A stretch of DNA of 64,000 bases from a virus (taxonomy: Duplodnaviria; Caudoviricetes). Shown in pieces: positions 9,784 through 27,382 of this stretch (position 1 is its first letter; each line of letters begins with the position of its first letter). The position numbers were made by a program, and so were the translations under genes. The stretch lies in the IMG/VR virus record IMGVR_UViG_3300042860_004240, positions 17,066 to 81,065 of that record; one strand, written 5' to 3'. The notes under the pieces are model-generated. The model did not search any database. It saw nothing but the letters and a program-made list of their open reading frames with translations, and was not told the DNA's origin.

Positions 9784-10162
9784 CGTAATGCCTTTAATAA
9801 TATTTTTGTCTGTTTTAGGAATATTCTCTAAAATTCAATCTTCTAAGTTAAGCAAAATAAACCAAAGCTATGATGAACAAAATAATGTTGATTATATATT
9901 TGCTTCTATTGTTAATCAATTAAATTTAGGGGATAACATTGAAGAAACAAAATAACGACATAAAACAAAAAATTGAACTCTTTATTTCTGAAACACATTT
10001 TGATATACATGGCATCTCTGCCACTCCATCATTTGATCAATCTTATGTTGTAAAGCTAATCACAAGAATAACAGTTAGCGCAACAACTGCTTTTTGGTCT
10101 TTTTTAGAACTAAAAGATTATTTAAACCAATTGAAAAAAACAAAATCTAGGAGAAATTAATA

Positions 10163-10531
10163 ATGGCTGACGAATATGATAAAGACATGACGTCTTTTAC
10201 TTTCTCTTTGAAACTTGCTTTAGAAGCTAAGAAAGATATTTCTGAAAAAGTTGATATGTTATCAGAAAGAATTGATCGGATTGTCGAGCACTTTACAATA
10301 GAAGACATTCCTATTATCAAACCAATTCTGAACATTACTCATTCCCGTAAAGAGTTGAAGAAACTTGCTAAAGCACTAGATAGAGTTGCCGATATTATCG
10401 AGCACCACGATGCTTTAACACAAAAGCTTAAAGTTATAGAACTTGCTGAGAAAGAACCAAATTGGTTCGCTGCTGCTTTTGGAGATTTTCAAGGCGATAT
10501 TGATTCTACAATATCAAACTTATTGTCATAG
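10163..10531 (+). CDS. Hypothetical protein
   Basis: 122-aa ORF with AGGAG RBS, directly before the Ubl cassette. Confidence 0.65.
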   Translation: MADEYDKDMTSFTFSLKLALEAKKDISEKVDMLSERIDRIVEHFTIEDIPIIKPILNITHSRKELKKLAKALDRVADIIEHHDALTQKLKVIELAEKEPNWFAAAFGDFQGDIDSTISNLLS

Positions 10532-10543
10532 GAGAAATTAATA

Positions 10544-12388
10544 ATGATAGAATATTCCTTAATCCAAGATCAAGATAAATATGTTGCAGTTCGCAGCACT
10601 GTAAAATCTATGAATCTTGACCATGTTACTGATAAAGATCTTTCATCTTTTTTCACTAATTTTTCAAAATATGCTCACTTTGATACTGGCTTGTTGCCTC
10701 TTGACGGAACTGGCCTTTTGGCTTACCGGCAAGCGGGTAACCACGCACAAATTGTAGTTCAAACAGCTCCTGCCGTTTCTAGAATCTTATGGGGTGAATC
10801 AGAAGGTGGCAGAGTCCAAACATACTTTTTGGCTCAACCTTACAAGATATATATTGGAGATATACTAGACGGTAACTTTTATGGTGCTAGAATATTTTAT
10901 TCTTACAATCCTATAACATCTCCTTCTCAAGAACTTTATCATACTAATCTTCCAAACATGAACTGTAGAGGCTACAGGGGCAACGCAGTTGGCTGGGTGT
11001 GCTTGTATCATACTTCTGATTGGAGCAATATTCCTCTTGGAGAAAAAGTTGCAAGATTAATTGAAAGATGTTCTGGTGATGAAGCTTACAATGATCGCAA
11101 TATGAGCGAAACAGATGGACCTCGCTTTTATGCTATGAATAAAAAGCCTAGCTATTTGTCTAACCCAGTTGAATGGGAACAGAAAACTACTGAAGAAGGA
11201 TTTTTGTGGACTTTGAATGAAGGAACTTGGATACCAGTTCTAGTTCAAGATCAAGATCATCAAGATAAACATTACGAAGATGGCATTCCTTTAACTTTGG
11301 GAATGGCTTTGACTGGTGACTATCAAGCTTATTACACAGATAACATTAAAACTAAGCCAGTAAACAAAATAGCTCGAAAAGATAAAACATTTGATGAAGA
11401 TTATGTTTTTACTTTAGTTAAAAAGTCTTATGAACTTTCTAGATTAAAAGAACCAAAACCTGATAATCTAGATCCATATACTTATGTCCAAAAAGTTCGT
11501 GATACTCATGCTCTTTCATCTAATCCTAATGGTAACGGTAACAGCGATAACGAAGAACACGATGAAGATGAGCAATTCTTATGCATCCATTGTGAAGAGT
11601 ATTTTAGTTACAACGATGATAACCACACCGTTGTTGATGATGGCGTTCTTTGCCAAGATTGTTATAATGAAGAATATGTTTACTGCGAAAATGTTGGTAA
11701 AGATATTTCTATGCAAACAGGGAATGCTGTATATCTAGAAGAAATAGATATGTGGGTTGATGGTAATGGTCCTAACATAATTCATTGCACAGGATGTGGT
11801 CAAGTTCATTACAGCAAAAACGCTACTAATACCTTTATGGTATTTTTGAATTCTGAAACCCAAGAGTATGATTCTTGTACACAATGCTATGAATATTCTG
11901 CACAGCTTATTCAAGCAGATTGTGCAGTTTGCACTAAACCACTTCCAATGGGAAGCCAATATAGCTCTTATGTAAACTCTATATCTTTTATTGATCAAGA
12001 CACTTCTCAAGTCAAAACAGCTCACATGCACAACGATTGCTCTGTTAAAGCAGCTTCAATTGTTTGTCCTTGTGGAAAATTAAGACATGGTGAACCTTTT
12101 GGTTATGAACAAATTGTTTCTCCTGAATCCATTAAAGATATAGATTCATTTACAATGATAACTCTTAAAGATCCTTTTGATCCTTTAGCTTTAATTGCAA
12201 ATTATAATAATGTCGAAAAGACTCTCAATACTGTTCCATCCTGTCAAAACGTTTGCGCTTCGTGCGTATGCTTTGATCAAGAATCTATGTCTTACAATTA
12301 TGATCCTAGTAAGTTTGATTTTCAACATTATGAATCTCTTACTAGTTTAATTTCAAAAGCCCTTAATCAAGAACAAACACAATTATAA
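10544..12388 (+). CDS. Prokaryotic E2 (family D / PRTRC-B-like) domain fused to a Cys-rich multi-zinc-ribbon region
   Basis: 'QPYKIY...IFYS..PI.S..QELYHTNLPN...GWVCL' fits the LY..P.PN...G.vC pattern of Prok-E2_D; many CxxC in the C-terminal half; adjacent to JAB, E1 and Ubl. Confidence 0.65.
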   Translation: MIEYSLIQDQDKYVAVRSTVKSMNLDHVTDKDLSSFFTNFSKYAHFDTGLLPLDGTGLLAYRQAGNHAQIVVQTAPAVSRILWGESEGGRVQTYFLAQPYKIYIGDILDGNFYGARIFYSYNPITSPSQELYHTNLPNMNCRGYRGNAVGWVCLYHTSDWSNIPLGEKVARLIERCSGDEAYNDRNMSETDGPRFYAMNKKPSYLSNPVEWEQKTTEEGFLWTLNEGTWIPVLVQDQDHQDKHYEDGIPLTLGMALTGDYQAYYTDNIKTKPVNKIARKDKTFDEDYVFTLVKKSYELSRLKEPKPDNLDPYTYVQKVRDTHALSSNPNGNGNSDNEEHDEDEQFLCIHCEEYFSYNDDNHTVVDDGVLCQDCYNEEYVYCENVGKDISMQTGNAVYLEEIDMWVDGNGPNIIHCTGCGQVHYSKNATNTFMVFLNSETQEYDSCTQCYEYSAQLIQADCAVCTKPLPMGSQYSSYVNSISFIDQDTSQVKTAHMHNDCSVKAASIVCPCGKLRHGEPFGYEQIVSPESIKDIDSFTMITLKDPFDPLALIANYNNVEKTLNTVPSCQNVCASCVCFDQESMSYNYDPSKFDFQHYESLTSLISKALNQEQTQL

Positions 12389-12399
12389 AGAAGGATATT

Positions 12400-14091
12400 A
12401 TGTCCAAAAAAAATGAAATAACAGAAGAAAAAGTATATACTTTAGAAGATTTAGATTATTTCTGGCTTCCAAATGGTTCTCCTTGTTTCCTTGGGAACAA
12501 AGAAAACATTTGTGATATTATAGAAAATTTAGGTATTAATATTTATTATTTAATATCTGATAAATCTACTTTTAAAGAATATACTCAAACTAAGCCAGCT
12601 ACTTGGACCAATGGTACTCAAGTCCCTGCTACAACAACTAAATACACTGAAGAATCTCGTGAAGCAGTTATATTTAAAGTTGTTAAAAATATGATCGGAA
12701 GAACTATTTCAGTTTCTAAAGATTCATTAGATGGGACTTATGTTGGCTTAGAGCCGCAAGCTATATATTCTCTTCCTCCAATTCCTATGAGTATCGTCAA
12801 CAAACTTGATGAATTCTTTAGATTAGTAGAAGCTCAGCTCGGCACTGAATCAATTGTCCTTTTGACTTTTGATTCTGCTAATCCAGATTCATCTGATTCT
12901 TGGGGTATTTTAGTTCCAGAACAAGAGAATACTTCAGTTCACTGCAAGTATGACCCAGATTCTATTGTAGCTATAAAGCCATATCATCTTTCTATTGTTG
13001 GATCAGTTCATTCTCATCCTGGAATGGCAGCTTATGCTTCTGGTACAGACCATGAAGATCAAGCAGACTTTGATGGTATCCATATTACTTATGGATGGCA
13101 AAAGAATGTTAATAATGGTGCTACTCAATATTACGCAGAAATGCAAATGGCAGGAACTGCTTTTGTTCTAGACATTGAAGATGTTTTTGATCTAGATCGA
13201 ACAGTAAAAGATCCTGATCCTGAAGTAATAGAATGGGCTCAAAATGTCTCAAAAAAAGCACTGCCCCCGTATTCGGCTACGGGGGTTACCAAGGGACAGC
13301 AGTACCAGCCTCTAACTCAGCCAACTATAGCAAGTTCTCCAACTATGGCGACGACTACAGCTGGTGGGGTAACTAGAAAGATCACAGATCTTGATATCCC
13401 CAAAGATGCTGTTCTTGTTGTAGAAGTAGATGATAAATCTATAGATCCTAAATGTCCACTTTGTGATTGGGAAGTATCAAATGTTGATCTTTCTAATTGC
13501 GTTTGCGGGGGATGCAACAATTATATAGCTACTCCTGGTGACACAGTACAAGAAATTATCGAACTAGTTACCTACGCTTATGAAATAAACAATGAAACTA
13601 CTTACAAAACCTATGGTGCACGTCCTGCATTTACCGATATTTATTACATGTGCAAAGATGTTAACATGGAGTTTATGTTTCTTCATATTTATGGAGAAAA
13701 AGTTACAGAAGAAAGTATTGCAAAACAAATTACAGCAAGCGCTTTAAATGATGATTATGATAACCCTTGGAACGCTTATGCTGAATATACTCTTTGTTGC
13801 AATACTCATATAGATTCAATAGCTGAAAGTTGCCCTTGCAATCCGACAGTTACTGTTGACGACATGTATGATTTTGAACTTAAGTTTCCTCAATTATTTG
13901 TGTATGACGACAGCTCTAACTGTAGTGCTTGTCAAAATTATTTACAACCTACATGTACTCCATATAGGAATTTAATAATTGATTGGGCTAAAACTGGAGA
14001 AGATCCATCTAGTCCTTTTATTGAAACATGCAAAGACTTCGTTGCGTATGATTCTCTTTATGCGTACGATAACGATAGATATCTAGATTAA
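12400..14091 (+). CDS. JAB/MPN+ metallo-isopeptidase with Cys-rich C-terminal domain
   Basis: Upstream Glu (GTESIVLL) and GSVHSHPGMAAYASGTD, matching HxH-x7-S-x2-D. Confidence 0.88.
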   Translation: MSKKNEITEEKVYTLEDLDYFWLPNGSPCFLGNKENICDIIENLGINIYYLISDKSTFKEYTQTKPATWTNGTQVPATTTKYTEESREAVIFKVVKNMIGRTISVSKDSLDGTYVGLEPQAIYSLPPIPMSIVNKLDEFFRLVEAQLGTESIVLLTFDSANPDSSDSWGILVPEQENTSVHCKYDPDSIVAIKPYHLSIVGSVHSHPGMAAYASGTDHEDQADFDGIHITYGWQKNVNNGATQYYAEMQMAGTAFVLDIEDVFDLDRTVKDPDPEVIEWAQNVSKKALPPYSATGVTKGQQYQPLTQPTIASSPTMATTTAGGVTRKITDLDIPKDAVLVVEVDDKSIDPKCPLCDWEVSNVDLSNCVCGGCNNYIATPGDTVQEIIELVTYAYEINNETTYKTYGARPAFTDIYYMCKDVNMEFMFLHIYGEKVTEESIAKQITASALNDDYDNPWNAYAEYTLCCNTHIDSIAESCPCNPTVTVDDMYDFELKFPQLFVYDDSSNCSACQNYLQPTCTPYRNLIIDWAKTGEDPSSPFIETCKDFVAYDSLYAYDNDRYLD

Positions 14092-14110
14092 ATTAAAAGA
14101 TTGGAAAAAA

Positions 14111-14878
14111 ATGTCAGATCAAAATGAAACAAAACAACATCGGTTTATACTCATCGGTGCTGGTGGAATTGGTACTTGGTTAGCTGCTGGTTTAGTGCGG
14201 CTACTAGAGTGGAAGTTCCCCGGCTCTGCATTGATTATAGTCGATGGTGACACCTATGAAGAAAAGAACAAAGAACGTCAAGACTTTACAAAAATTGGCA
14301 ATAAAGCCAGTGTTAAAGCATATGAGCTTTCTGTTCAATTTAACAACACCACTATTATCCCTGTACCAAAGTGGATAGTAGGCGAAAACTATGAAGGCGT
14401 TGCAGATAGCGATTCTCCTAAAATTAAAGCTTCAGATTTAATTGCTGAAGGAGACGTTGTTTTTGCTGTAGTAGATAACTTTGCTGCTAGGAAAATTATT
14501 TTTGACGCAGCAACTTCTATAGCAAACATAGACATTTTTACTGGCGGAAACGATGATGATTTGTTTGGCAGCATTTATCATTATCAGCGTAGGAATGGAG
14601 AAGACGTTACTGAACATCCAGTTAACTTCCATCCTGAATACGAAAATCCACCAGATAAAAACCCAGGAGAATTATCCTGTCAAGAAAGATCAGAGATAGA
14701 AGGAGGAACGCAATTGCTTGCAACAAACATGGCAGTTGCTTCGTTCTTGCTCGGTCGTGTACAGAAAACGATAGTTAATTCAGAAAGCCCTACAGAAGCA
14801 GAGATATACTTTGACTTAGGTGTAGGTAAAGCTGAACCATATGATCGTTCACCTGTAAAAGTTAATGCCAATATATAA
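14111..14878 (+). CDS. ThiF/E1-like activating enzyme
   Basis: IGAGGIG, VDGD-x4-KN-x2-RQ, NKA, VDNFAAR, and candidate catalytic Cys in LSCQE. Confidence 0.92.
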   Translation: MSDQNETKQHRFILIGAGGIGTWLAAGLVRLLEWKFPGSALIIVDGDTYEEKNKERQDFTKIGNKASVKAYELSVQFNNTTIIPVPKWIVGENYEGVADSDSPKIKASDLIAEGDVVFAVVDNFAARKIIFDAATSIANIDIFTGGNDDDLFGSIYHYQRRNGEDVTEHPVNFHPEYENPPDKNPGELSCQERSEIEGGTQLLATNMAVASFLLGRVQKTIVNSESPTEAEIYFDLGVGKAEPYDRSPVKVNANI

Positions 14879-14902
14879 ATAATCCCAACAAGGAGAATAA
14901 CA

Positions 14903-15157
14903 ATGCAAATTAATAGCAACAACAATGAAAACGCATCAGGGGGTGTAGCAAACGTCCGTTTTGGCGTTTACTCACAAGCTAGCCCTGTTGCTGGAAAGAG
15001 CATCAAAGAAATTCGTGAACAGTTTTCTAAACTGTGGGGAATTCCTTCTGACGCTACAGCTTACAAGGGTAAGGACAAGATGGACGAAGACTACGTTGTC
15101 CAGCAGAATGACAACCTTGAGTTCCACCGCCGTGCTGGTGAAAAAGGTAGTCTCTAA
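14903..15157 (+). CDS. Ubiquitin-like (beta-grasp) protein ending GEKG-SL
   Basis: 84 aa with a beta-grasp-like pattern (...DEDYVVQQNDNLEFHRRAGEKG); strong AAGGAG RBS; directly after E1. Confidence 0.8.
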   Translation: MQINSNNNENASGGVANVRFGVYSQASPVAGKSIKEIREQFSKLWGIPSDATAYKGKDKMDEDYVVQQNDNLEFHRRAGEKGSL

Positions 15158-15169
15158 ATTTAAAAGATC

Positions 15170-15225
15170 GTGGGGGGATTTTAAAGATAACAATGCTTTA
15201 TTAAATCCTCTGGATGTCCCCCCAC
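15170..15225 (+). other. Intergenic stem-loop between the Ubl and AAA genes
   Basis: GTGGGGGGA (15170-15178) pairs with TCCCCCCAC (15217-15225). Confidence 0.6.
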
Positions 15226-15240
15226 TTATACCCTTTATGA

Positions 15241-16869
15241 ATGGAATATATGATACTCGAACAAATTAAATTAGGAACTCCACTATTGTGGATTAAAACA
15301 GAAGATATTGACAGGATTAATGACTTTGTAATTAATTCTAAAATTAGAGATTTTTATAGCATTATTCCAAATTTAGGTTTTTCCAAATTAGTAGATAAAA
15401 CCTGGAAACCAGTATTAGTAGATTTTCCTAATCCAGACGATGGAAGCATTACTCAAGACACAACATACGATTTTGTTGTTGCTTACCAGCACTTGAAGAA
15501 GACCAACGAAAGTATGTCTTCAATTGCTTTTATTCATAGCTTTTATACTGATCCAAAAAGCTTTCTTGAAGCATACGGCCCAGTTATGTCTTCATTCAAC
15601 CACTTTTATAGGAACTCTTTCTTTGCAGATGATGTAACCCTTCTGCCAATGCAAAATATATTTATTTCAAGTTTTGATTGCCCGGAAGAGTATGCTTCTA
15701 TTTTTAGTATCAATAATTCTGAGCCTTTATCTATAGGAGAAATGCTTGAAATTTTGAACCACTTTGCTACCATAAGCGACAATTTGTTTGTAGAAGATGG
15801 TACCGCACAAGATATTGCTCGCAGTGCATTAGGTTTATCTGAGTCTGTTTTTATTAATCTTTGTTTACTTTCTATTATTAAAAACAAAGTAATATCTTCT
15901 AAGTATATTTATGACACTAAAATGTCTAAAATAAAACAGAGTGGAATTTTAGAAATCATTAAACCTAAAATGACATTTGATAATATCGGTGGATTAGATA
16001 ATGCTAAAGATATTATCAAGAAGAATGTATGGTTGTGGAATAACCCAGAAGAAGCTAAGAAATTTGGTGTTCAGCCTATTAGAAGAATACTAATGGTTGG
16101 AGTTCCAGGTACTGGCAAGTCTGCTATTTGTGAAGCTACTGCTCATGAATTAGGTCTTGATTTGGCTAGAACTGGAGTCAGCCAAGTTATGAATTCTTTT
16201 GTTGGTCAATCAGAAGCCAACATGAGAGCTGTCTTTAACCAGATTAAAGTTATGGCTCCTTTGTGTGTTTGGATCGATGAGTTTGGTCGTGATATGTCAG
16301 GCGGTCAAAGTTCTTCCCATGTAGATGGTGGTACTACCGACAGAGTTCACGGTGAATTTCTAACTGGTCTTCAAGAACTTCCTGAAAATGTTTTTCTTAT
16401 TTGTGCAGCAAACCAGATTGAAAATCTAAAACCAGAAATGCTTAGAGCAGAACGTTTTGACAAGATTATATTTGTTGGTTTACCTTCACAATCAGAGCGT
16501 AAAGAAATAATTAAAATACATCTTTCTAATATTCAAACTGATCACAATTGGGATCTTGACGCTCTTGCTGAATCTACTACTGGATTTACCGGTGCAGAAA
16601 TAAAGTCTTTAATTAAAGAAACTAACTTCTATGTTGTTTCTTCTGAATTGCGAACTTTAAATACTAATGATATACTTATAAAAGCACCAAAGATGCGTAA
16701 TATACTTTGGAATAAGAATAGAGATTCTATTATAGGATTGTACAAGTCCGCTATTGAACAATGGGACTTTGCTTCATCTTCTCAACTAGAAGATGCCTCT
16801 AAAGTTATTTCTGGTAATTACACTTCTAGAGGTACAGCTAAACCTACGCCTCAAAAATCTAGTTGGTAA
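15241..16869 (+). CDS. AAA+ ATPase (Ycf46-like)
   Basis: FDNIGGLD, Walker A GVPGTGKS, Walker B VWIDE, SRH 'AAN...LKPEMLRAERFD', lid 'GFTGAEI'. Confidence 0.93.
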   Translation: MEYMILEQIKLGTPLLWIKTEDIDRINDFVINSKIRDFYSIIPNLGFSKLVDKTWKPVLVDFPNPDDGSITQDTTYDFVVAYQHLKKTNESMSSIAFIHSFYTDPKSFLEAYGPVMSSFNHFYRNSFFADDVTLLPMQNIFISSFDCPEEYASIFSINNSEPLSIGEMLEILNHFATISDNLFVEDGTAQDIARSALGLSESVFINLCLLSIIKNKVISSKYIYDTKMSKIKQSGILEIIKPKMTFDNIGGLDNAKDIIKKNVWLWNNPEEAKKFGVQPIRRILMVGVPGTGKSAICEATAHELGLDLARTGVSQVMNSFVGQSEANMRAVFNQIKVMAPLCVWIDEFGRDMSGGQSSSHVDGGTTDRVHGEFLTGLQELPENVFLICAANQIENLKPEMLRAERFDKIIFVGLPSQSERKEIIKIHLSNIQTDHNWDLDALAESTTGFTGAEIKSLIKETNFYVVSSELRTLNTNDILIKAPKMRNILWNKNRDSIIGLYKSAIEQWDFASSSQLEDASKVISGNYTSRGTAKPTPQKSSW

Positions 16870-16881
16870 CAGGAGAAACAA

Positions 16882-17508
16882 ATGTCTAATTTTGATGTAA
16901 AAGAATTTTTAAATGGAATTGATCAAGAAGGTTCAGATGAACTTAATCCAATTCCACCAAAGCAGTTTACCACTGAACTCTACAAAAAATGGTTTCGTTC
17001 AAAAACGAGCAGTGGCTTCTTAGCTATTAAGCCTTGGTTTGAAGGAATGAAATTTAAAATTGATATTGGTAAAACTGCTCCAGAAGGCAAGTTAATTAGT
17101 TCTACTAATGTTTATCTTGACGCTTTTGATTTTGCAGCTTATCTAAAGTCAATAGCAAACGGAACTGCAATTACCAATTATCCAGCCAATGAAAGAACTG
17201 GTATTCCTTCTCCTGAAGGATTCTCTTCTTACGGTGGTTCTGAGATTAATGGTAAGCCTGTTAGTAGAATCTTTAAGTCCCACTATTGGCAAAATGGTGA
17301 TTCTTTTGATCCTAACGCTTTTGCTTGGAAGTGTGGCCATTTTGCAGCACGCAAGTCTGAAAGTGGAGCTTTCATACCAGATTTAAAATCACCTATATCT
17401 GTTGATTTTATTAAAGTTACAAGACAAGATATATGTTCTATATCATATCTTTTAGATTTATCTTTAGCAGCTTACGTAGCAAACAACTCAGATTGGTATG
17501 AACAATGA
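16882..17508 (+). CDS. Hypothetical protein
   Basis: 208-aa ORF with AGGAG RBS in the Ubl operon. Confidence 0.7.
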   Translation: MSNFDVKEFLNGIDQEGSDELNPIPPKQFTTELYKKWFRSKTSSGFLAIKPWFEGMKFKIDIGKTAPEGKLISSTNVYLDAFDFAAYLKSIANGTAITNYPANERTGIPSPEGFSSYGGSEINGKPVSRIFKSHYWQNGDSFDPNAFAWKCGHFAARKSESGAFIPDLKSPISVDFIKVTRQDICSISYLLDLSLAAYVANNSDWYEQ

Positions 17509-17924
17509 CCGAATACGAAGAACTAGGCGATGCCTACTCTCTTGACGAAGACTTGCTTAACAAGCACATTCAAGACATTGATTACAAAGACCAAGTAGAA
17601 CAGGTTTTGATGACTTTGGCTTCTACTTTAGAAGGTAGATTGCAAGAGTTTGAAAAGTACTTGGAAAATTTTGAAAAACAAATTGCTACTCTTGTAATTG
17701 GTTTTGGCGAACAAGCTGTTTTTATGGATGCATTGATAGCGCAAATGGCTTTTTCTTCTGAAGAATCTAAGAAGGCATTTCACGATACTATAAACAAGTC
17801 TCGCAAACAAATGCTAGAGATAATGAAAGAAGGAGCTAATGACCTCTTGGGCTCAAGTGATCCAGGAATTTCGTCAGCCATTGAGAGCTTGGCTAGCGAA
17901 CAGCTATCTAACTTTACCGAATAA
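17505..17924 (+). CDS. Hypothetical coiled-coil protein
   Basis: ATGA overlap with the upstream gene. Confidence 0.7.
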   Translation: MTEYEELGDAYSLDEDLLNKHIQDIDYKDQVEQVLMTLASTLEGRLQEFEKYLENFEKQIATLVIGFGEQAVFMDALIAQMAFSSEESKKAFHDTINKSRKQMLEIMKEGANDLLGSSDPGISSAIESLASEQLSNFTE

Positions 17925-18135
17925 TGGTATATCGATATTGTTTTTAAATGACAACAGTCATAAAATGATATCTAATAATTTGTATTATATTAATCAAATA
18001 TACCCTTTAGTCCAAAAAGTTAGTCCAGATATATTTTCTTTGTTTTTTATTTCTGATGATTCTTTAATAAACCATTTAAAAAATGATGCTATTTCTTTTA
18101 GCCATTTTGAAAAACAATCTTTAAGTTAGGAACAC

Positions 18136-18825
18136 ATGTCTTCTCAAGTTATATTACCTTTAAGTAAATTTAATAAAAAACATATTGACACAATAGTAAA
18201 TCATAATCAACTTGTAAAGATTAATCAATCTACTTTTGATTCTTTAAAGTTAAATGATTTTGATTCTCTTAAGTCAATATATTTATCGCCAAATATACAA
18301 CAAAATAATATTACTGTAGGTTATTATTTCAGCGATGAACTACGTCAATATTTTCAACAAGTTATCACTGATAATACAACTACTAAAAATAACTTACCAG
18401 TTTTATCAACAGATTTAACTAGAACTTACATTTATCCTTTTTCTGCTGATGAATATAAAGCTCAACATCTTGCTGGATATTCTCCATATGAACAAGATTT
18501 TTTATTTAATATCTTTTTGAATAAAGATGATCTTCCTATATTTAATAGGATAATAGACTGTAATTCTTATCTGATAATCATGGCTATTCCTTTAACTGTT
18601 GAAGAACATAAAATATTTTCCTATCAGTGGAAATCTGTTTATTCTATTAATGCAATACTCCCTAATCTTGCGACTATTGAAAAAGTTTATAAGTCTTATA
18701 TAAAAGAATTAGATTATTATTATGGACAAAATGAACAACTTTTAGAAGAAAACAACAATTTGAAACAACAACTTAACTTTTTAACTGAAGAGCTTATTAA
18801 GAGCAATAAAGTTACTTGGAATTAA
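18136..18825 (+). CDS. Hypothetical protein with C-terminal coiled coil
   Basis: 229-aa ORF with AGGA RBS. Confidence 0.65.
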   Translation: MSSQVILPLSKFNKKHIDTIVNHNQLVKINQSTFDSLKLNDFDSLKSIYLSPNIQQNNITVGYYFSDELRQYFQQVITDNTTTKNNLPVLSTDLTRTYIYPFSADEYKAQHLAGYSPYEQDFLFNIFLNKDDLPIFNRIIDCNSYLIIMAIPLTVEEHKIFSYQWKSVYSINAILPNLATIEKVYKSYIKELDYYYGQNEQLLEENNNLKQQLNFLTEELIKSNKVTWN

Positions 18826-18852
18826 AAATTACAACTATTTAAGGACTATTAT

Positions 18853-19764
18853 ATGGATAACAAAATTTCTCTTGATGATTCAACTCAATTTATTCAAAGA
18901 GACCGGGTTTTTAACATTTGCGATTACAAACAAGCAAATAAAAAGAATGGTTCTAATATAGATATCCCTTCTGGGTATTCTTATATTTATTATCATTCCC
19001 GTGAAAGCGAAGCTATTGATGTCTTTTATAATAATGAAAATTTGAATCAGGATTATTCTTATCAAATTTCTTCAATAAAAGAAGATAATTTTTCTACAAT
19101 CATGAAAGATATCGTCCAGCATTACGAAAAGGCATCCCCTAATTCTTTAACTGCTGAGCAAAAGCAGCGGATTCCTTTTACTTTAAGCGTTTTGAATTTC
19201 TTGTATAATGAATACACTAATCAGTATGTTTACATTATAGACACTAATTTAATAGCTAGTTTTTCTAAAAAAGTTGCTGTTTATTCTGTTTGTAAGTCTT
19301 TTAGCAATCCTCAAAATAAGCAATATTCTGATACTTATCAATACGCTAACGACACCTACGCTAACAATTGTTCTAATAAAAATGTTGTTAAATTGAGCGT
19401 TACTGCTGTCGTTCCTTGCGTTTTTGCTAACCAAACACAATGTAATTTTTACGAAAAAAATCTTACAGTATTAAAAACTGAATTAATAATTGACAAAATA
19501 AACCAAACAGATTCTATATTGTACACTCTTCAAAAAGAGTACTTTTCAGATAGATCTTTAGTTTATACTATAAAATCAGAACACTCTACTGCTTTGGTGT
19601 TTACCCACGATTCTGTATCAACATCAGATTTTGAGCTGTACGATCAAGAAGCAATAATTGTATTTGATAATTTTATATCAGAAACTGCAAATGCTATTCT
19701 TGAATCTTCTCATCTTGCTAATGCTACCGAAACAAAAAATAGCTATTTGATGAGCTTAATTTAA
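18853..19764 (+). CDS. Hypothetical protein
   Basis: 303-aa ORF with AAGGA RBS; several Cys. Confidence 0.65.
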   Translation: MDNKISLDDSTQFIQRDRVFNICDYKQANKKNGSNIDIPSGYSYIYYHSRESEAIDVFYNNENLNQDYSYQISSIKEDNFSTIMKDIVQHYEKASPNSLTAEQKQRIPFTLSVLNFLYNEYTNQYVYIIDTNLIASFSKKVAVYSVCKSFSNPQNKQYSDTYQYANDTYANNCSNKNVVKLSVTAVVPCVFANQTQCNFYEKNLTVLKTELIIDKINQTDSILYTLQKEYFSDRSLVYTIKSEHSTALVFTHDSVSTSDFELYDQEAIIVFDNFISETANAILESSHLANATETKNSYLMSLI

Positions 19765-19778
19765 GGAGCTTTATTAAA

Positions 19779-21005
19779 ATGAACAATAAGATTTATCCAA
19801 AAATTCCAGTTAACTTTTATCCTGAAAAAGAAACTAACGAAGAAAACCCTGCTTATGTGAATTCTACTTTGTTGATTAAAAACAAAGAAGTTCATTTACT
19901 AAAAGTTCTTAGCTTTTACAGTAAATCTTCTGACCAACCTCTTGAATTTGAATATGCTAAGTACGCGCTTGCTGATTTCTTTGAAACTGTTCAACAATCT
20001 GAATCTATACAAAAGTCATTAAATAACAATGACCGGTCAGTTCTAAAGAAAATATTTCCAACAGCTACCAGATTTATTACAGAAGATGGTTCTGTTCTTA
20101 TAGAGCGTCCTCCTTTTCGCCACACTATAGATTTTACACCTGTAAAAGCTTCTAAAGTTAACAGAAAATCATCTAAAAAGATTGAGCCTATTACTGTTTG
20201 GGTTCCTTGGACTGTTTATAAAATGAACATTAATAAACAAGGCCATTTTAATATAACAATTCATTTTAATGATTCTTCTATATCTTCATTAAATGATCAT
20301 ATCTTTCCTTCTCTTTTCCCAAATGTTTTTAGCGGTGGACTAATATGTTTTGGAAGTGAGTCTTCATACAATAGTGAGTTTGTTCAAAACGCTATTAAAG
20401 ACGACACTTATTCTTACAAAGAATTATTTAATTATTTAATTTCCAATTATTACAATGGTGGCTGGAATACTGACATATTGCCAAGTAGTTCTGACATTCC
20501 TATGTTTATGATGTTTCAATCTTATGACCGCATTAAAGCCTTGAATGATCCTAAAGCTTTAGAAATATATTCTAACGCTATGGCAAAGTGTACCCCAGTC
20601 AAGCACAAAGATAGCTATATTGCAATGTATCTTAACGCTTTAAATATATGGTCTGTTTACTCATTAGAAGATCTTCTTTATTTATACAAGCATTGTGTTG
20701 ATGCTCACTCTTTGCGACAAATGGTTTCTTTATCTTCTTTAGTCACTGTCGATATTAACCCACGTGCTTTCCGTTACAACTCAACCGACCTAGACGAGCA
20801 TTTGCGCAAAATGATGGTAAAGCCCAACTACCATGCTTACAAACAAGGCGTTACAATTTTGCGTTATGACAGAGACCCAATAACTGGTGAACAGTATCCT
20901 TCTTGTGGCAATATACTTCAAGAAAATATGTATAAAATGTTAGATAATATAATCACGCATGAAGATTCTAAAAAATCATCTGCTACTTTTGAGGAAAAAT
21001 TATGA
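19779..21005 (+). CDS. Prokaryotic E2 family D-like protein (paralog 2)
   Basis: 'IERPP...VWVPWTVY...FPNVFSGGLICFG...WNTD'. Confidence 0.6.
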   Translation: MNNKIYPKIPVNFYPEKETNEENPAYVNSTLLIKNKEVHLLKVLSFYSKSSDQPLEFEYAKYALADFFETVQQSESIQKSLNNNDRSVLKKIFPTATRFITEDGSVLIERPPFRHTIDFTPVKASKVNRKSSKKIEPITVWVPWTVYKMNINKQGHFNITIHFNDSSISSLNDHIFPSLFPNVFSGGLICFGSESSYNSEFVQNAIKDDTYSYKELFNYLISNYYNGGWNTDILPSSSDIPMFMMFQSYDRIKALNDPKALEIYSNAMAKCTPVKHKDSYIAMYLNALNIWSVYSLEDLLYLYKHCVDAHSLRQMVSLSSLVTVDINPRAFRYNSTDLDEHLRKMMVKPNYHAYKQGVTILRYDRDPITGEQYPSCGNILQENMYKMLDNIITHEDSKKSSATFEEKL

Positions 21006-22261
21006 CAAACAGTGCTTTTGAAATTATGGCAACTTGCTTTTCTGGTAATAGTTATTTTGAATATAATCAAGAACAACGAAACCAAATTTTTAATACTTTT
21101 GTAGGAAACATGGGTCGTTCTAATTCTTTGGATTGCATTAGCTTTGCTCAGAATTCTATTTACGGACACGCTCAAACTGAAACATTATATTTTGAATCTA
21201 GCGAAAACAAAAAGATAATAAATAGTATTATTGGAGTTGAATCATACAACTCTAGTGGCCTTATCCCTCCTGGTTTAGTTTCTTTGGGAAAAAATATTGT
21301 AATCTTTGAGAATCCTCCAACTAGTAAATTGATTAGCCACCATCCAACTGACCGTGATTCTATAAGCGATGATGATGAACCTGACAGCTACTATATCCCT
21401 GTGCCTTGGCAAGTATATGTTTGTGTATTTAATAACGAATATAATTTATTAGATACTTATATGTTTTATACCCGCGATGCCATTTCTAAAACAGGTTTTG
21501 ATCAACAAGTTTATGCTCCTGTTCTTCCTAACTTCTTTGGCAATGGTCAATTGTGTAGGCCTTTCTATCCTACCCTTGATGATGTCGATAGGTATTCAAA
21601 AGATATTTCTGGGGTAATAGCTTCGGCATATGACTCTATTTGGAATAGCGGTTGGAACTTAGATTTATACGAAACTTTAAACGAATACTTTATTCTATTT
21701 AAAGACACTCGTTTAATAAATACTGATACTGGAATTACAGATTCTTTTAAAAGAAATTTAAATCCTATTCTTAAAAATTCTTTAGAACTTTTTGAATCTG
21801 AACAACAGCAATCTGTTTATGTAGATATCCATCAACAAACAAAAACTTTATTTGCAACTCGAGCTAGAAATAACCTTTTGGATACTTATTGCTCTGTAGT
21901 TAAAGACCTTACGCTTAATCAAATTTGTTTAGCTCCTTTTCCATCTCCTTCTTTTGAAAGATATGCAGACAGTGATTCTTTAGACCGTGATGAGTTGCAC
22001 GAAGAATACATGAATTCTTGCGATGAAGACGAGTATTCAGACCAAGGTTGGGAAGAGTATTATTACGAACACAGAAATGCTATGCGTTTTTCTAATAAGC
22101 CTTTTGAAGCAGTGCTCAATAAACTTTTGAGTAATCTTGATGGGATACTAGGTAGGCAACGAATAGACAATATGCAGACTATGGTTAAAGAAATTAACAA
22201 TCAAGATATGCATCGTGTAGAAAATGTTCCTGTATCTCAAGTTTCTCAAGATCCTTTTTAA
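21002..22261 (+). CDS. Prokaryotic E2 family D-like protein (paralog 3)
   Basis: 'FENPP...IPVPWQVY...LPNFFGNGQLC...WNLD'; ATGA overlap with paralog 2. Confidence 0.6.
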   Translation: MTNSAFEIMATCFSGNSYFEYNQEQRNQIFNTFVGNMGRSNSLDCISFAQNSIYGHAQTETLYFESSENKKIINSIIGVESYNSSGLIPPGLVSLGKNIVIFENPPTSKLISHHPTDRDSISDDDEPDSYYIPVPWQVYVCVFNNEYNLLDTYMFYTRDAISKTGFDQQVYAPVLPNFFGNGQLCRPFYPTLDDVDRYSKDISGVIASAYDSIWNSGWNLDLYETLNEYFILFKDTRLINTDTGITDSFKRNLNPILKNSLELFESEQQQSVYVDIHQQTKTLFATRARNNLLDTYCSVVKDLTLNQICLAPFPSPSFERYADSDSLDRDELHEEYMNSCDEDEYSDQGWEEYYYEHRNAMRFSNKPFEAVLNKLLSNLDGILGRQRIDNMQTMVKEINNQDMHRVENVPVSQVSQDPF

Positions 22262-22327
22262 ACTTGATTTTACTATCTTTTTATGATACTATATATACTT
22301 AGATAAAGTTATCAAAAGGTACTTAAA

Positions 22328-22636
22328 ATGGCAAAGTTTAATAAAATTAATAAACACCCTTCTTTTTCAAGGTTAGACGTATCTAATATTTTAAATGTTT
22401 CTACTTTAACAATTGCTAACAGGGAAAAAAATAAAAAATACCCTCCATCTAAAAGAGATTTAAATAATTATAGAATTTACTCTTTGAATGATGTTTTCAA
22501 TTTACAGCTGATAACATATAATCACATAGATCCAAAACCAATAATATCAATTCTTTACGATAAAGGATATAAAGATCCTAAGATTGTATCTGAAATGATA
22601 GACCAAGTCTTATCGAGAAGGAATTCTAATGCCTGA
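22328..22636 (+). CDS. MerR-like helix-turn-helix DNA-binding protein
   Basis: 'DVSNILNVSTLTIANREK...P.KRD.NNYRIYS'; TTGATT...TGATACTAT promoter-like sequence upstream. Confidence 0.7.
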   Translation: MAKFNKINKHPSFSRLDVSNILNVSTLTIANREKNKKYPPSKRDLNNYRIYSLNDVFNLQLITYNHIDPKPIISILYDKGYKDPKIVSEMIDQVLSRRNSNA

Positions 22637-23325: not shown

Positions 23326-23355
23326 CGAACTCTATAGTGTAAACTAAGCACTATT

Positions 23356-26767: not shown

Positions 26768-27382
26768 ATGACAACCATAGTTGCAATACAAGGTGACAGT
26801 TTTGCTGTAGTAGCAGTTGATTCTAGAATTTCAGCCATGGAATCAGACGGCTTTGCTACGATATCTACTTTAGGGGAAAACAGCGGTAAAGTAGCTGTAA
26901 ATGGTAAATACCTTTTAGGTGCAGCTGGGGATGTAAGAGCTATAAATATTTTACATCATGCTTTTATTCCTCCTACTCCTCCTTCTGGATTAAAGGGTAA
27001 AAAGTTAGACCAATTTTTTACTGTTAAATTTATTCCTGCTTTGCGCGATTGCTTTGAAAAGCAAGGATATGCTTCTCCTGACAATAATGAAGACAAGCAG
27101 CACATTGCAGAACAGGCTTCTACTATTTTAGCTGTTGTATCTGGCACTGTTTACGTAGTCGATTCAGACTATGCTTGGTCTTCTGATAGCAACGGAATAT
27201 ATGCTTTGGGTTCCGGCAGTGCTTATGCCCTTGGTGCACTTACTGCCTTAACTGCAGGGAAGAAAATACAAACAGTTTCACAAGCTAAGTCTTTGGCTTT
27301 GAAAGCTTTGGCTGTGTCTGCTAAATTTGATCCTTACACTGGCCCTCCATTTAGGACTCATGTTCAAGATTTTTCTAAGTAA
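26768..27382 (+). CDS. Proteasome beta-subunit / HslV-like Ntn threonine protease
   Basis: With ATG at 26768 (AAGGAG RBS) the protein starts M-TTIVAI...VAVDSRIS...K...GAAG...ALGSGSAYALGAL. Confidence 0.88.
   Translation: MTTIVAIQGDSFAVVAVDSRISAMESDGFATISTLGENSGKVAVNGKYLLGAAGDVRAINILHHAFIPPTPPSGLKGKKLDQFFTVKFIPALRDCFEKQGYASPDNNEDKQHIAEQASTILAVVSGTVYVVDSDYAWSSDSNGIYALGSGSAYALGALTALTAGKKIQTVSQAKSLALKALAVSAKFDPYTGPPFRTHVQDFSK

What the first reader, a model, noticed from the sequence alone, without database searches (positions are those of the whole stretch)
10544..16869. Phage-encoded ubiquitin-like conjugation cassette: E2(Zn)-JAB(Zn)-E1-Ubl-AAA+
Seen: five contiguous co-oriented genes with the motifs listed in features. 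Established: E1/E2/JAB/Ubl operons occur in bacterial mobile elements (PRTRC-type) and in antiphage systems that conjugate proteins. No thiamine or molybdopterin genes and no ParB are adjacent here. Inference: the phage runs its own protein-tagging pathway, with the Cys-rich extensions acting as E3-like substrate adaptors and the AAA+ ATPase acting on conjugates. Possible roles are host takeover or counter-defence, in a host phylum that normally uses pupylation.
Basis: partly seen in the sequence, partly recalled or inferred. Interest (0 to 1): 0.85.

Follow-up and report, generated by a model that had tools for sequence, protein, structure and literature searches.

The report
Phage-encoded ubiquitin-like tagging gene cassette
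A family of roughly 200-kb uncultured lake phages carries its own ubiquitin-like tag together with activating, conjugating-like and tag-removing enzymes and a protein-unfolding ATPase, which suggests that these phages tag proteins much as eukaryotic cells do.

Summary
The five genes are real and lie at the stated coordinates. Three identities are solid. The E1 is a ThiF-family enzyme with an invariant loop Cys190. The JAB has a complete, invariant JAMM motif. The ATPase is a classical AAA+ with an intact pore loop.

The 84-aa protein is predicted to be a beta-grasp fold whose best PDB matches are ubiquitin, NEDD8 and SUMO. In 31 of 33 distinct relatives it ends exactly at the Gly that the window's copy follows with Ser-Leu.

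The "E2" (10544-12388) has no Pfam hit and no PDB fold match. These carry a PN-x7-C motif and match Pfam Prok-E2_D.

E2-like, JAB, E1, Ubl and AAA+ genes are contiguous in every related IMG/VR locus long enough to show them. Several of those loci come from complete, roughly 200-kb terminase-bearing phage genomes. No cultured phage has the whole set.

A conserved HslV/proteasome-family peptidase gene lies 10 kb downstream (26768-27382).

Best reading: a phage-run Ubl conjugation and deconjugation system, possibly coupled to unfolding or degradation. Targets, role and host are unknown. I rate it a new variant of a known kind.

The parts
10163..10531 (+). Conserved 122-aa upstream neighbour of unknown function, with a C-terminal WFA..FGDF motif. 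Membership in the system is not shown.
   Evidence: tblastn hit in 50 of 51 related loci, always directly upstream of the E2-like gene. No family hit above noise. The C-terminal motif is seen.
10544..12388 (+). E2-like protein ('E2c'). It has an N-terminal domain of about 290 aa with LPN(138)...GWVC(153)L, an acidic linker, then CxxC pairs (Cys347/350, 370/373, 415/418, 445/448 and more) that look like zinc ribbons.
   Evidence: ORF. The family has 411 relatives and 237 clusters at 50% identity. Cys153 and Asn138 are invariant in 44 diverse sequences. hhalign to the 21002-22261 family gives 96.8%, E 2.6e-10. There is no Pfam hit. The AF2 model has pLDDT 89.4 but no PDB match.
12400..14091 (+). 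JAB/JAMM metallopeptidase with an N-terminal domain and a Cys-rich C-terminal tail. Catalytic residues are Glu150, His204, His206, Ser214 and Asp217.
   Evidence: Pfam Prok-JAB E 2.2e-4, 21.5 bits, below the cut-off of 25. The JAMM residues and the first CxxC...CxxC (352/355/369/372) are invariant in 27 of 27 sequences. The alignment to an archaeal Rpn11-like chain 6fjv covers the motif.
14111..14878 (+). Single-domain E1-like adenylating enzyme (ThiF family) with GAGGIG, DGD, VVDN..AR and an invariant loop Cys190 (NPGELSCQER).
   Evidence: Pfam ThiF 6.1e-12, 45.6 bits, above the cut-off of 28.1. Residues are invariant in 30 sequences with 70% mean column identity. Best NCBIfam hit is PRTRC_ThiF at 4.1e-7, far below its cut-off.
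14903..15157 (+). Ubiquitin-like beta-grasp protein of 84 aa. The conserved end is ...EFHRRAGEKG (Gly82), followed here by Ser-Leu.
   Evidence: AF2 model pLDDT 80.3 with bb-a-bb-b topology. Foldseek against PDB gave 19 hits at E<=1e-3, all ubiquitin-family (ubiquitin and engineered variants, NEDD8, SUMO, a Bacteroides fragilis ubiquitin-like protein), at probability 1.00. 31 of 33 distinct relatives end at this Gly. No Pfam, PHROG or NCBIfam hit.
15241..16869 (+). Classical-clade AAA+ ATPase. It has an N-terminal domain of about 230 aa of unknown fold, Walker A at 287-294, pore loop F320-V-G, Walker B WIDEF, sensor AANQ and Arg402/405.
   Evidence: Pfam AAA 2.7e-25 and AAA_lid_3. NCBIfam CDC48 1.8e-41, PAN 1e-38 and FtsH 2e-38, all below their cut-offs. 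PADLOC IetA 3.4e-30. The motifs are conserved in 36 sequences.
16882..17924 (+). Two conserved downstream neighbours (208 aa and 139 aa) of unknown function. Membership in the system is not shown.
   Evidence: Each was found in 46 of 51 loci in the same order. There are no family hits. The ESM Atlas gave only viral hypothetical clusters, plus a sub-threshold Whirly lead at 0.84.
19779..21005 (+). Second E2-like protein (408 aa) with FPN(182)-x7-C(190).
   Evidence: Pfam Prok-E2_D E 0.0067, 16.6 bits, below the cut-off of 25. It is a paralogue of the next gene (BLASTP 2e-6; hhalign 99.4%). Pro, Asn and Cys are invariant in 21 sequences. Present in 40 of 51 loci.
21002..22261 (+). Third E2-like protein (419 aa) with LPN(177)-x7-C(185). 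It ends in ...QDPF.
   Evidence: Its family alignment includes L053:4019-4909, which scores Prok-E2_D 35.7 bits, above the cut-off. Asn177 and Cys185 are invariant in 13 sequences. Homologues in G001, G002 and G003 give weak Prok-E2_D matches. Present in 37 of 51 loci.
26768..27382 (+). HslV/proteasome-beta-family Ntn peptidase (204 aa counted from the ATG). It starts Met-Thr-Thr and has Asp18, Lys41 and a GSGS motif. A link to the cassette is possible but unproven.
   Evidence: Pfam Proteasome 2.6e-7, 30.9 bits, above the cut-off of 22.4. There are 866 relatives; most of the 120 listed carry precomputed PF00227 and several are named as HslV by JGI. All 6 distinct homologues begin MTTI. It is 62-65% identical in G001-G005 and was not found in G006, G007 or G008. 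PDB hits to BPH and HslV are weak.

Best explanation
The cassette is a phage-encoded system that activates, conjugates and removes a ubiquitin-like protein. It belongs to the conserved gene set of a lineage of uncultured lake phages of about 200 kb.

Proposed steps, all inferred:
(1) In this phage the 84-aa precursor is trimmed by the JAMM peptidase to expose Gly82. Most relatives encode the mature form directly.
(2) The ThiF-type E1, probably a homodimer, adenylates Gly82 and takes the Ubl onto its invariant loop Cys190.
(3) The Ubl passes to the invariant Cys of one of three E2-like paralogues: Cys153 of the zinc-ribbon-tailed 614-aa protein, Cys190 of the 408-aa protein or Cys185 of the 419-aa protein.
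(4) The Ubl is then attached to unknown phage or host targets. The Cys-rich tails are candidate target-binding modules.
(5) The JAMM peptidase also reverses conjugation.
(6) More speculatively, the adjacent Cdc48/PAN-like AAA+ unfoldase engages tagged proteins. In the main clade the HslV-like peptidase may then degrade them.

Shown here: the gene order and its conservation, the family memberships of the E1, the AAA+ and the peptidase, the catalytic motifs, the predicted beta-grasp fold and the conserved terminal Gly. Every chemical step and every partner relationship is inferred.
For: - Gene order. E2-like, JAB, E1, Ubl and AAA+ are kept in all related loci that reach far enough: 51, 50, 48, 47 and 46 of 51.
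- Conservation. E1 and Ubl are the best conserved parts of the block (52-98% and 44-99% identity, against 35-80% for E2c).
- E1. Pfam ThiF is above its cut-off, and the nucleotide loop, Asp residues and Cys190 are invariant.
- Ubl. The model is a beta-grasp, and its 19 PDB hits at E<=1e-3 are all ubiquitin-family proteins (ubiquitin and engineered variants, NEDD8, SUMO, a Bacteroides fragilis ubiquitin-like protein). No ThiS or MoaD appears among the 50 rows listed. 31 of 33 distinct relatives end in ...EKG.
- JAB. E-HxH-S-D is invariant in 27 of 27.
- E2-like chain of homology. E2c to the 419-aa family scores 96.8%, E 2.6e-10. The 419-aa family to the 408-aa family scores 99.4%. Members reach Pfam Prok-E2_D at 35.7 bits, above the cut-off. 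The Cys is invariant in all three families.
- AAA+. The Walker motifs, pore loop and Arg fingers are conserved.
- E1-Ubl co-fold. Weak support: ipSAE 0.55, 0.56 and 0.53 against 0.00 for the best of 3 controls; partner pLDDT at least 79; runs agree in at least 70% of contacts. The tool states that a pass at 0.60 or under is more often wrong than right unless the guess was likely beforehand, and that the pass may reflect likeness to solved E1-Ubl complexes.
- RNA libraries. Contigs 90-99% alike, including one of 1278 nt spanning E1, Ubl and the start of the AAA+ gene, occur in 4 of 4 metatranscriptome runs laid. The tool notes that this does not show transcription, because DNA can be present in such libraries.
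Against: - The window's own 408-aa protein scores only 16.6 bits for Prok-E2_D (cut-off 25), and the 419-aa protein has no Pfam E2 hit itself.
- The E1 is a minimal single-domain ThiF, like sulfur-carrier activators. It is not a eukaryote-like or Bil-like multidomain E1.
- These phage genomes appear largely collinear, so conserved adjacency of the AAA+ and other neighbours may reflect shared ancestry rather than function. In the divergent subgroup (L045, L047, L048) about 2.2 kb separates the Ubl and AAA+ genes.
- The HslV-like peptidase was not found in G006, G007 or G008, which keep the cassette, and it is separated from the cassette by SSB- and UDG-type genes.
- No target, conjugate or phenotype is known.
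Confidence: 0.6

Rival explanations
1. Sulfur-carrier or other non-protein acyl-adenylate pathway. The E1 adenylates the small beta-grasp protein, which is converted to a thiocarboxylate (ThiS/MoaD/CysO/QbsE style) and donates sulfur to a metabolite, tRNA or phage DNA modification. The JAB only trims or recycles the carrier.
For: The E1 is a minimal ThiF-type enzyme whose NCBIfam hits include ThiF, MoeB and MoeZ. JAB peptidases partner sulfur carriers in bacterial sulfur-assimilation gene clusters (Iyer 2006, PMC1779556, passages read). The carrier ends in a single exposed Gly. The phage carries many metabolic genes (P450, ketoacyl synthase, desaturase).
Against: No ThiS or MoaD appears among the 50 listed PDB matches of the Ubl model; all are of the ubiquitin family. 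No rhodanese, desulfurase, ThiG/ThiH or MoaE-type hit was seen in any neighbour scanned. Three E2-like paralogues with invariant Cys are conserved beside it. The E1 has no rhodanese domain: it is 255 aa with only a ThiF hit.
Confidence: 0.1
2. Only E1, Ubl and JAB form a working unit, for example a reversible tag added directly by the E1 as archaeal SAMPs are. The three 'E2-like' proteins, the AAA+ and the peptidase are unrelated phage core genes that merely sit nearby in collinear genomes.
For: E2c has no detectable UBC fold match and no Pfam hit. Synteny extends to clearly unrelated neighbours such as SSB-like and UDG genes, so order alone is weak evidence of function. The peptidase was not found in G006-G008.
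Against: Profile-profile and Pfam links tie the three proteins to the prokaryotic E2 family D. Each keeps an invariant Cys eight residues after a Pro-Asn pair in the two shorter paralogues; that this matches the canonical E2 spacing is my recollection, not a tool result. E2c, JAB, E1 and Ubl stay contiguous even in the most divergent subgroup.
Confidence: 0.15
3. A phage-borne exclusion or defence cargo of the Bil or CBASS type. The cassette would tag the structural proteins of competing phages, or prime a defence effector, rather than serve the phage's own cycle.
For: Bacterial E1/E2/JAB/Ubl operons (Bil) conjugate a Ubl to phage tail proteins (PMC11601596, passages read). The AAA+ resembles the defence ATPase IetA (PADLOC 3.4e-30; NCBIfam IteA 1.7e-24). 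The E1 gives weak PADLOC matches to CBASS E1-E2 models (best 1.7e-4).
Against: The cassette is a fixed, highly conserved part of the lineage's genome, present in every locus long enough, unlike variable defence islands. No PADLOC hit was found for E2c, JAB or Ubl. The E1 lacks the tandem-domain architecture described for BilD and is not fused to an E2 as in CBASS.
Confidence: 0.07

Closest known systems
Bacterial Bil (BilA-D) Ubl-conjugation operons
   Same: Both have separate Ubl, E2, JAB/JAMM peptidase and E1 genes in one cluster, and a Ubl with a reactive C-terminal Gly (PMC11601596, passages read).
   Different: BilD is described as a tandem inactive/active adenylation-domain E1 with a mobile Cys domain. 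Here the E1 is a single ThiF domain of 255 aa. This system sits in a phage core genome, has three E2-like paralogues, zinc-ribbon tails and an adjacent AAA+. No direct sequence match to Bil proteins was obtained or specifically tested.
PRTRC (ParB-related, ThiF-related cassette) of plasmids and mobile elements
   Same: The best NCBIfam hits of the E1 and the JAB are PRTRC_ThiF (4.1e-7) and PRTRC_A (0.03). Both are carried by mobile elements.
   Different: The scores are far below the family cut-offs (29.6 against 144.75 bits; 13.9 against 101.8). No ParB and no PRTRC B to F matches were found among the proteins scanned.
Pfam Prok-E2_D (PF14460) prokaryotic E2 family
   Same: The 408-aa and 419-aa families match it, up to 35.7 bits in a relative, and keep the PN...C active-site pattern. 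E2c is linked to them by hhalign.
   Different: E2c itself has no Pfam hit and has about 7 extra residues between PN and the Cys. The window's own copies fall below the cut-off. PF14460 was not found in the 401 Actinomycetota genomes sampled.
Archaeal SAMP / UbaA / JAMM system with PAN or Cdc48 and the 20S proteasome, and the eukaryotic 19S lid (Rpn11 plus Rpt ring)
   Same: The components are a small beta-grasp tag ending in Gly, a single-domain E1, a JAMM isopeptidase, a classical AAA+ unfoldase (NCBIfam CDC48/PAN hits) and a proteasome-family peptidase.
   Different: SAMPylation needs no E2 (recalled from the literature, not checked here). The peptidase here is of the HslV/BPH kind with no alpha subunit found. 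No coupling between any of the parts has been shown.
JAB-ThiF gene pair of cultured Bacillus jumbo phages vB_BceM_WH1 and Edson
   Same: These are the only 2 of 50,697 GenBank phage records with a tblastn match to the E1 (26-27% identity). In WH1 the gene upstream of ThiF (gp215) matches the JAB family at hhalign 95.7%, E 1e-8.
   Different: In WH1 there is no E2c-like protein (gp213, hhalign probability 0.4), no Prok-E2_D match and no HslV-like gene. No Ubl was looked for. Edson was not examined beyond the tblastn hit.
Lambda/T1 tail-assembly Ubl (TAPI) with the JAB of TAPK
   Same: It is a phage-encoded beta-grasp protein with a conserved C-terminal Gly paired with a JAB peptidase (PMC1779556, passages read).
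   Different: That system has no E1, E2 or AAA+ and lies in the tail module. The cassette here is not flanked by recognised structural genes.

Membership tests
Ubiquitin-like beta-grasp modifiers | beta-grasp fold | tested here: met
   The AF2 model has pLDDT 80.3 and strand-strand-helix-strand-strand-strand topology. Foldseek against PDB gave probability 1.00 to ubiquitin, NEDD8 and SUMO, with TM about 0.55-0.65. This is a predicted structure, not a solved one.
Ubiquitin-like beta-grasp modifiers | C-terminal Gly that is exposed or can be exposed | tested here: met
   31 of 33 distinct relatives end in ...GEKG. The window, L002 and L049 add two residues. G79, E80, K81 and G82 are invariant in 34 sequences.
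Ubiquitin-like beta-grasp modifiers | covalent attachment to targets | not testable with these tools
   This needs biochemistry or proteomics.
E1 / ThiF / MoeB adenylating enzymes (PF00899) | Pfam score above the curated cut-off, and a Gly-rich nucleotide loop | tested here: met
   45.6 bits against 28.1. GxGGxG, DGD and VVDN..AR are invariant in 30 sequences.
E1 / ThiF / MoeB adenylating enzymes (PF00899) | catalytic Cys used for a thioester | tested here: inconclusive
   Cys190 in NPGE(L/M)SCQ is invariant. Its position in the crossover loop and its role are inferred.
JAMM/MPN+ (JAB) metallopeptidases | E ... HxH ... S..D zinc and catalytic motif | tested here: met
   Glu150, His204, His206, Ser214 and Asp217 are invariant in 27 of 27 sequences.
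JAMM/MPN+ (JAB) metallopeptidases | Pfam Prok-JAB above the curated cut-off | tested here: not met
   21.5 bits against 25 (E 2.2e-4). The match covers only the motif region.
E2/UBC superfamily (for 10544-12388) | match to a UBC or Prok-E2 sequence model | tested here: not met
   No Pfam family for the window protein or for any of 44 diverse members. No PADLOC, PHROG or NCBIfam E2 hit.
E2/UBC superfamily (for 10544-12388) | UBC-like fold | tested here: inconclusive
E2/UBC superfamily (for 10544-12388) | homology to recognised E2s, and a conserved active-site Cys after a (H)PN motif | tested here: met
   hhalign gives 96.8%, E 2.6e-10 to the 419-aa family, which contains a member above the Prok-E2_D cut-off. 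Asn138 and Cys153 are invariant in 44 sequences. The link is transitive, not direct.
Pfam Prok-E2_D (for 19779-21005 and 21002-22261) | score above the curated cut-off of 25 bits | tested here: inconclusive
   Window 408-aa protein: 16.6 bits. Window 419-aa protein: no hit. Relatives: L053:4019-4909 at 35.7 bits (pass) and L053:2239-3153 at 20.4 bits. Weak matches were also seen in G001-G003.
Classical AAA+ ATPases (PF00004) | Pfam score above the cut-off; Walker A and B, pore loop and Arg fingers | tested here: met
   89.8 bits against 21.2. The motifs are conserved in 36 sequences.
PRTRC system | ParB-family partner and PRTRC A-F/ThiF models above their cut-offs | tested here: not met
   PRTRC_ThiF scored 29.6 against 144.75 and PRTRC_A 13.9 against 101.8, with no other PRTRC model hit. 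No ParB was found among the neighbours scanned.
Bil system | [quoted passage not shown] | tested here: not met
   The E1 is 255 aa with one ThiF domain. The Bil architecture is taken from PMC11601596 passages.
Proteasome / HslV Ntn-hydrolase family (for 26768-27382) | Pfam PF00227 above the cut-off, and an N-terminal Thr nucleophile | tested here: met
   30.9 bits against 22.4. Met-Thr-Thr start in the window's protein and in all 6 distinct homologues (7 loci, two of them the same gene). Most of the 120 listed relatives carry precomputed PF00227. PDB sequence hits are weak (BPH 0.0041 to 0.04).

The most novel reading that the evidence does not exclude
These phages carry a self-contained ubiquitin-proteasome-like pathway. 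It comprises a Ubl, a minimal E1, three E2-like enzymes (one with zinc-ribbon target adaptors), an Rpn11-like JAMM peptidase, a Cdc48/PAN-like AAA+ unfoldase and an HslV/proteasome-family peptidase. Together these would tag, unfold, de-tag and degrade chosen host proteins, or defence proteins, during infection. That would make regulated Ubl-directed proteolysis a viral invention or acquisition outside archaea and eukaryotes.
Probability: 0.15. Interest if true: 0.92.

Novelty: new variant of a known kind. Interest (0 to 1): 0.72.

Why it matters
Ubl-conjugation operons in bacteria are currently understood as anti-phage weapons (Bil, type II CBASS) or as mobile-element cassettes of unknown role. 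This case puts a full set (Ubl, E1, three E2-like proteins and a JAMM peptidase) on the phage side, as a fixed and strongly conserved part of a widespread lake-phage lineage. An unfoldase sits next to it, and in the main clade there is also a proteasome-family peptidase.

If it works as proposed, three things follow. Phages would use protein tagging for their own programme. The system would be a compact, tractable Ubl cascade with a 255-aa E1 and an 82-aa tag. It would also bear on how E2s and Ubl-directed unfolding or degradation evolved.

My full-text searches found no paper describing such a phage cassette. The passages I read of a 224-genome jumbo-phage survey do not mention one (PMC7824862). 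Subscription-only papers and supplementary tables were not searched.

Tried and rejected
Identity of the element
- Giant virus rather than phage: an NCLDV capsid search found nothing in 5 records, but its control rang nowhere, so it is uninformative. The terminase hits and terminal repeats decide for a tailed phage.
- Close DNA or protein relatives among cultured phages: blastn of the cassette and tblastn of E2c against 50,697 GenBank phage records found nothing. Those records may leave out the window's own genome.

The E2-like fold and family
- phmmer of E2c against PDB gave only noise, such as PA28 at E 0.01 over the low-complexity linker.
- The ESM Atlas lead to Prok-E2_D rests on 13-15% of cluster members, and the query's recognition value was low (1617). 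I treated it only as a pointer, which searches then tested.
- A direct hhalign of E2c against canonical bacterial Prok-E2_D could not be made, because the sampled Actinomycetota gave no members (0 of 401).
- The E2c family was not found in 401 genomes of the class around G010. The E1 profile was not found in 5 Acidimicrobiia genomes. Both are samples, and no positive control genome was available.

Other checks
- The promoter and terminator scan of 9800-22400 was no richer than shuffles (50 against 54.7 +/- 7.4; 10 against 6.0 +/- 2.8), and no terminator-like site lay between the five genes. It says nothing either way about an operon.
- RNA libraries: parts of the stretch without cover in the four runs (for example 13271-13788 and 15602-15860) prove nothing, and depth cannot rank genes.
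- Habitat: 19 lake-water DNA runs hold 98-99% of the sampled words, but they may include the source sample.
- In WH1, gp213 is not E2c-like.

Alignments used subsets of what was available
- A1: 29 of the 120 listed relatives (of 411), plus the window.
- A4: 33 of the 51 loci, plus the window.
- A5: 43 of the 150 listed representatives (of 237), plus the window.
- A2: all 33 distinct Ubl sequences, plus the window.
- A3: 29 of 34 distinct E1 sequences, plus the window.
- A8: 26 distinct JAB sequences, plus the window.
- A6: 19 of 31 distinct sequences, one ORF from L053, and the window.
- A7: 10 of 11 distinct sequences, two ORFs from L053, and the window.
- A9: 6 homologues, plus the window.
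Duplicates and ORFs cut by contig ends were dropped.

Supplementary files of the papers were closed. Table S1 of PMC11601596, which lists the operons, might include phage-borne examples that I could not see.

Full report
**What is there.** One search confirms five co-oriented ORFs at exactly the reported coordinates: 10544-12388 (614 aa), 12400-14091 (563 aa), 14111-14878 (255 aa), 14903-15157 (84 aa) and 15241-16869 (542 aa). The gaps between them are 11 to 83 nt. The window is part of an 81-kb virus record with 29-43% G+C and four tRNA genes.

**Is it a phage?** Nothing similar exists among 50,697 GenBank phage records at the DNA level or for the first protein. The first protein does have 411 metagenomic relatives. 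A profile search of IMG/VR returned 51 loci, some on contigs of 170-270 kb. Of five such records examined, three have direct terminal repeats with a 100% completeness estimate, and four of the five have a Terminase_6N match, three of them above the cut-off. An NCLDV capsid search was empty, but so was its control. I therefore accept 'phage', meaning a tailed jumbo phage lineage known only from metagenomes. Nineteen lake-water DNA runs hold 98-99% of the stretch's sampled words, although these may include the source sample.

**The solid identities.**
- The 255-aa protein is a ThiF-family E1 (Pfam 6.1e-12, above the cut-off). The Gly-rich loop, DGD, VVDN..AR and Cys190 in NPGE(L/M)SCQ are invariant across 30 sequences.
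- The 563-aa protein matches Pfam Prok-JAB only below the cut-off (21.5 against 25 bits). However, the complete JAMM signature (Glu150, His204, His206, Ser214, Asp217) is invariant in 27 of 27 sequences.
- The 542-aa protein is a classical AAA+ (PF00004 2.7e-25). Its nearest NCBIfam models are CDC48, PAN and FtsH. Walker A and B, an F-V-G pore loop, sensor 1 and the Arg fingers are conserved in 36 sequences.

**The Ubl.** The 84-aa protein has no family hit. Folded with 34 sequences it gives a beta-grasp model with pLDDT 80.3. Its 19 PDB matches at E<=1e-3 are all ubiquitin-family proteins: ubiquitin and engineered variants, NEDD8, SUMO and a Bacteroides fragilis ubiquitin-like protein. The 50 rows listed add ISG15 and FAT10 and contain no ThiS or MoaD. 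Most telling, 31 of 33 distinct relatives end exactly at ...EFHRRAGEKG. Only the window, L002 and L049 add two residues. The family has 81 clusters at 90% identity, all unnamed. An E1-Ubl co-fold gave only weak support: 0.55 against 0.00 for the best of three controls. The tool itself cautions that a pass at this level is often wrong, and that it may reflect likeness to solved complexes.

**The 'E2'.** This is the weak point of the original claim.
- The N-terminal domain of about 290 aa is very conserved. Asn138 and Cys153 are invariant in 44 sequences that go down to 32% identity.
- It has no Pfam hit, in the window protein or in 44 diverse members.
- An ESM Atlas pointer to Prok-E2_D led me to search the genome with PF14460. 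That search hit not this gene but ORF 19779-21005.
- That ORF and its neighbour 21002-22261 are paralogues (BLASTP 2e-6; hhalign 99.4%). Each has an invariant Pro-Asn followed eight residues later by an invariant Cys. I recall this as the spacing of the canonical E2 HPN...Cys motif.
- A relative in L053 scores 35.7 bits for Prok-E2_D, above the cut-off. The window's 408-aa protein scores 16.6 bits. Homologues in G001-G003 give weak matches.
- The E2c profile aligns to the 419-aa family at 96.8% probability, E 2.6e-10, over 120 columns that cover the sheet, the PN motif and the following helix. It aligns more weakly to the 408-aa family (60%).

I conclude that the phage has three E2-like paralogues. 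E2c is a derived one, with about seven extra residues in the active-site loop. Membership of the UBC fold is inferred from sequence and has not been shown by structure.

**Conservation.** tblastn on the 51 loci finds E2c in 51, JAB in 50, E1 in 48, Ubl in 47 and AAA+ in 46, in the same order. Every miss falls at a contig end.
- The two flanking unknowns (10163-10531 and 16882-17924) are equally syntenic.
- The 408-aa and 419-aa genes occur in 40 and 37 loci.
- E1 and Ubl are the most conserved members of the block.
- A divergent subgroup (L045, L047, L048, L050) keeps E2c-JAB-E1-Ubl contiguous, but differs in three ways. Its JAB lacks the distal Cys-rich tail. About 2.2 kb, holding two ORFs of 390 and 172 aa in L045, separates the Ubl and AAA+ genes. 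The record behind L045 has three tandem E2-like genes.

Because these genomes look broadly collinear, synteny alone does not prove that the AAA+ or the unknowns belong to the system.

**An unexpected neighbour.** ORF 26768-27382 is a proteasome-family peptidase.
- Pfam PF00227 scores 30.9 bits against a cut-off of 22.4.
- The window's protein and all six distinct homologues begin Met-Thr-Thr.
- There are 866 relatives. Most of the 120 listed carry PF00227, and some are named HslV by JGI.
- PDB sequence hits to BPH and HslV are weak.
- It is 62-65% identical in G001-G005, in fixed order after SSB-like and UDG genes.
- It was not found in G006 (75% complete), G007 or G008 (90% complete), all of which keep the cassette.

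**Mechanism.** The best-supported reading is a phage-run Ubl cascade. The JAMM peptidase trims the tag where needed. The E1 adenylates it and carries it as a thioester on Cys190. The tag passes to an E2-like Cys and is then attached to unknown targets. The JAMM peptidase reverses the attachment. The AAA+, and in the main clade the HslV-like peptidase, may act on the conjugates. This would be an analogue of Rpn11 plus the Rpt ring plus the core particle, but the coupling is speculative. Rival readings (a sulfur carrier, an E1-only tag, exclusion cargo) are weighed in their own sections.

**Expression.** Contigs 90-99% alike occur in four of four metatranscriptome libraries laid. One 1278-nt contig spans the E1, the Ubl and the start of the AAA+ gene. 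The tool warns that this does not prove transcription.

**Host.** The evidence conflicts.
- For Actinomycetota: the phage's acyl-ACP desaturase has its nearest cellular relatives there (58 of 65 titled loci, 30-39% identity), and an Rpf-type transglycosylase domain lies upstream.
- Against: an NCBI record of a Ubl relative on a 193-kb contig is labelled Flavobacterium sp.. The only control genome with a Prok-E2_D match above the cut-off is Bacteroides thetaiotaomicron.

The pupylation angle is therefore unproven.

**Comparison and novelty.** The closest known systems are Bil, PRTRC, the archaeal SAMP/JAMM/PAN-proteasome axis, and a JAB-ThiF pair in the Bacillus jumbo phages WH1 and Edson. The cassette fails the defining tests for PRTRC and Bil membership. 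Six full-text searches found no description of a phage E1/E2/Ubl/JAB cassette. The passages I read of the 2021 jumbo-phage survey do not mention one. Supplements and subscription journals were not covered. I rate it a new variant of a known kind, with interest 0.72.

Noticed in passing
window 26768-27382 (+): An HslV/proteasome-beta-family peptidase gene (Pfam PF00227, 30.9 bits; starts Met-Thr-Thr). It is conserved at 62-65% identity in G001-G005 but was not found in G006-G008.
   Followed up: yes
window 21002-22261 and 25956-26486; E2c relatives in L005-L052: A shared C-terminal (D/E)PF tail. The 419-aa E2-like protein ends ...QDPF and the 176-aa ORF just upstream of the peptidase gene ends ...KDPF. 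29 of 42 distinct E2c relatives end in PF, though the window's own does not. The SSB-like ORF 22909-23325 ends ...IPDSF. This may be a common docking peptide.
   Followed up: partly
window 15241-16869 and homologues: The AAA+ proteins carry a Trp within their last six residues in 29 of 36 distinct sequences (an aromatic residue in 35 of 36). The position is not fixed as in an HbYX motif.
   Followed up: partly
window 31108-39474 (+): A run of metabolic genes unusual for a phage: a 2OG-Fe(II) oxygenase (31108-32049), a cytochrome P450 (34044-35297), a beta-ketoacyl synthase (37302-38549) and an acyl-ACP desaturase (38542-39474). NAD-dependent epimerase/dehydratase genes lie on the minus strand at 42045-43058 and 54630-55595.
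   Followed up: partly
window 363-2027 (+): A subtilase (Peptidase_S8, 4e-38). The cassette's AAA+ resembles IetA, whose known partner is an S8 protease (recalled), but the two genes are 13 kb apart.
   Followed up: no
L006 and L024 (both in IMGVR_UViG_3300042868_009074, 267,766 bp): One record holds two diverged copies of the whole cassette and two copies of the peptidase gene (L122, L125). It may be a chimera of two related phages or a true duplication.
   Followed up: no
L056 (Bacillus phage vB_BceM_WH1, LC597490.1 182508-184817): A cultured jumbo phage has a JAB-like gp215 directly upstream of ThiF gp216, followed by a NADAR gene. No Prok-E2_D or HslV-like gene was found in it.
   Followed up: partly
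L053 2239-4909 (G006:C1:31238-33908): Three tandem E2-like (Prok-E2_D-like) genes in the divergent subgroup, where the window has two.
   Followed up: partly
L001 9522-10394 (contig bases upstream of the window): A protein with both an Rpf-type transglycosylase-like domain (PF06737) and an SLT domain. It is a possible lysin and a host hint.
   Followed up: no
window 16882-17508 (+): The strongly conserved 208-aa neighbour has only viral hypothetical relatives. There is a sub-threshold ESM Atlas lead (0.84) to the Whirly ssDNA-binding fold.
   Followed up: no
window 22909-24099 (+): An SSB-like ORF (by its acidic C-terminal tail only) and a uracil-DNA glycosylase-superfamily gene (PF03167, 3.4e-12) lie between the E2-like genes and the peptidase gene.
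   Followed up: no
P0437: A Ubl relative on a 193-kb contig is labelled 'Flavobacterium sp.' by NCBI. This conflicts with the Actinomycetota hints for the host.
   Followed up: no
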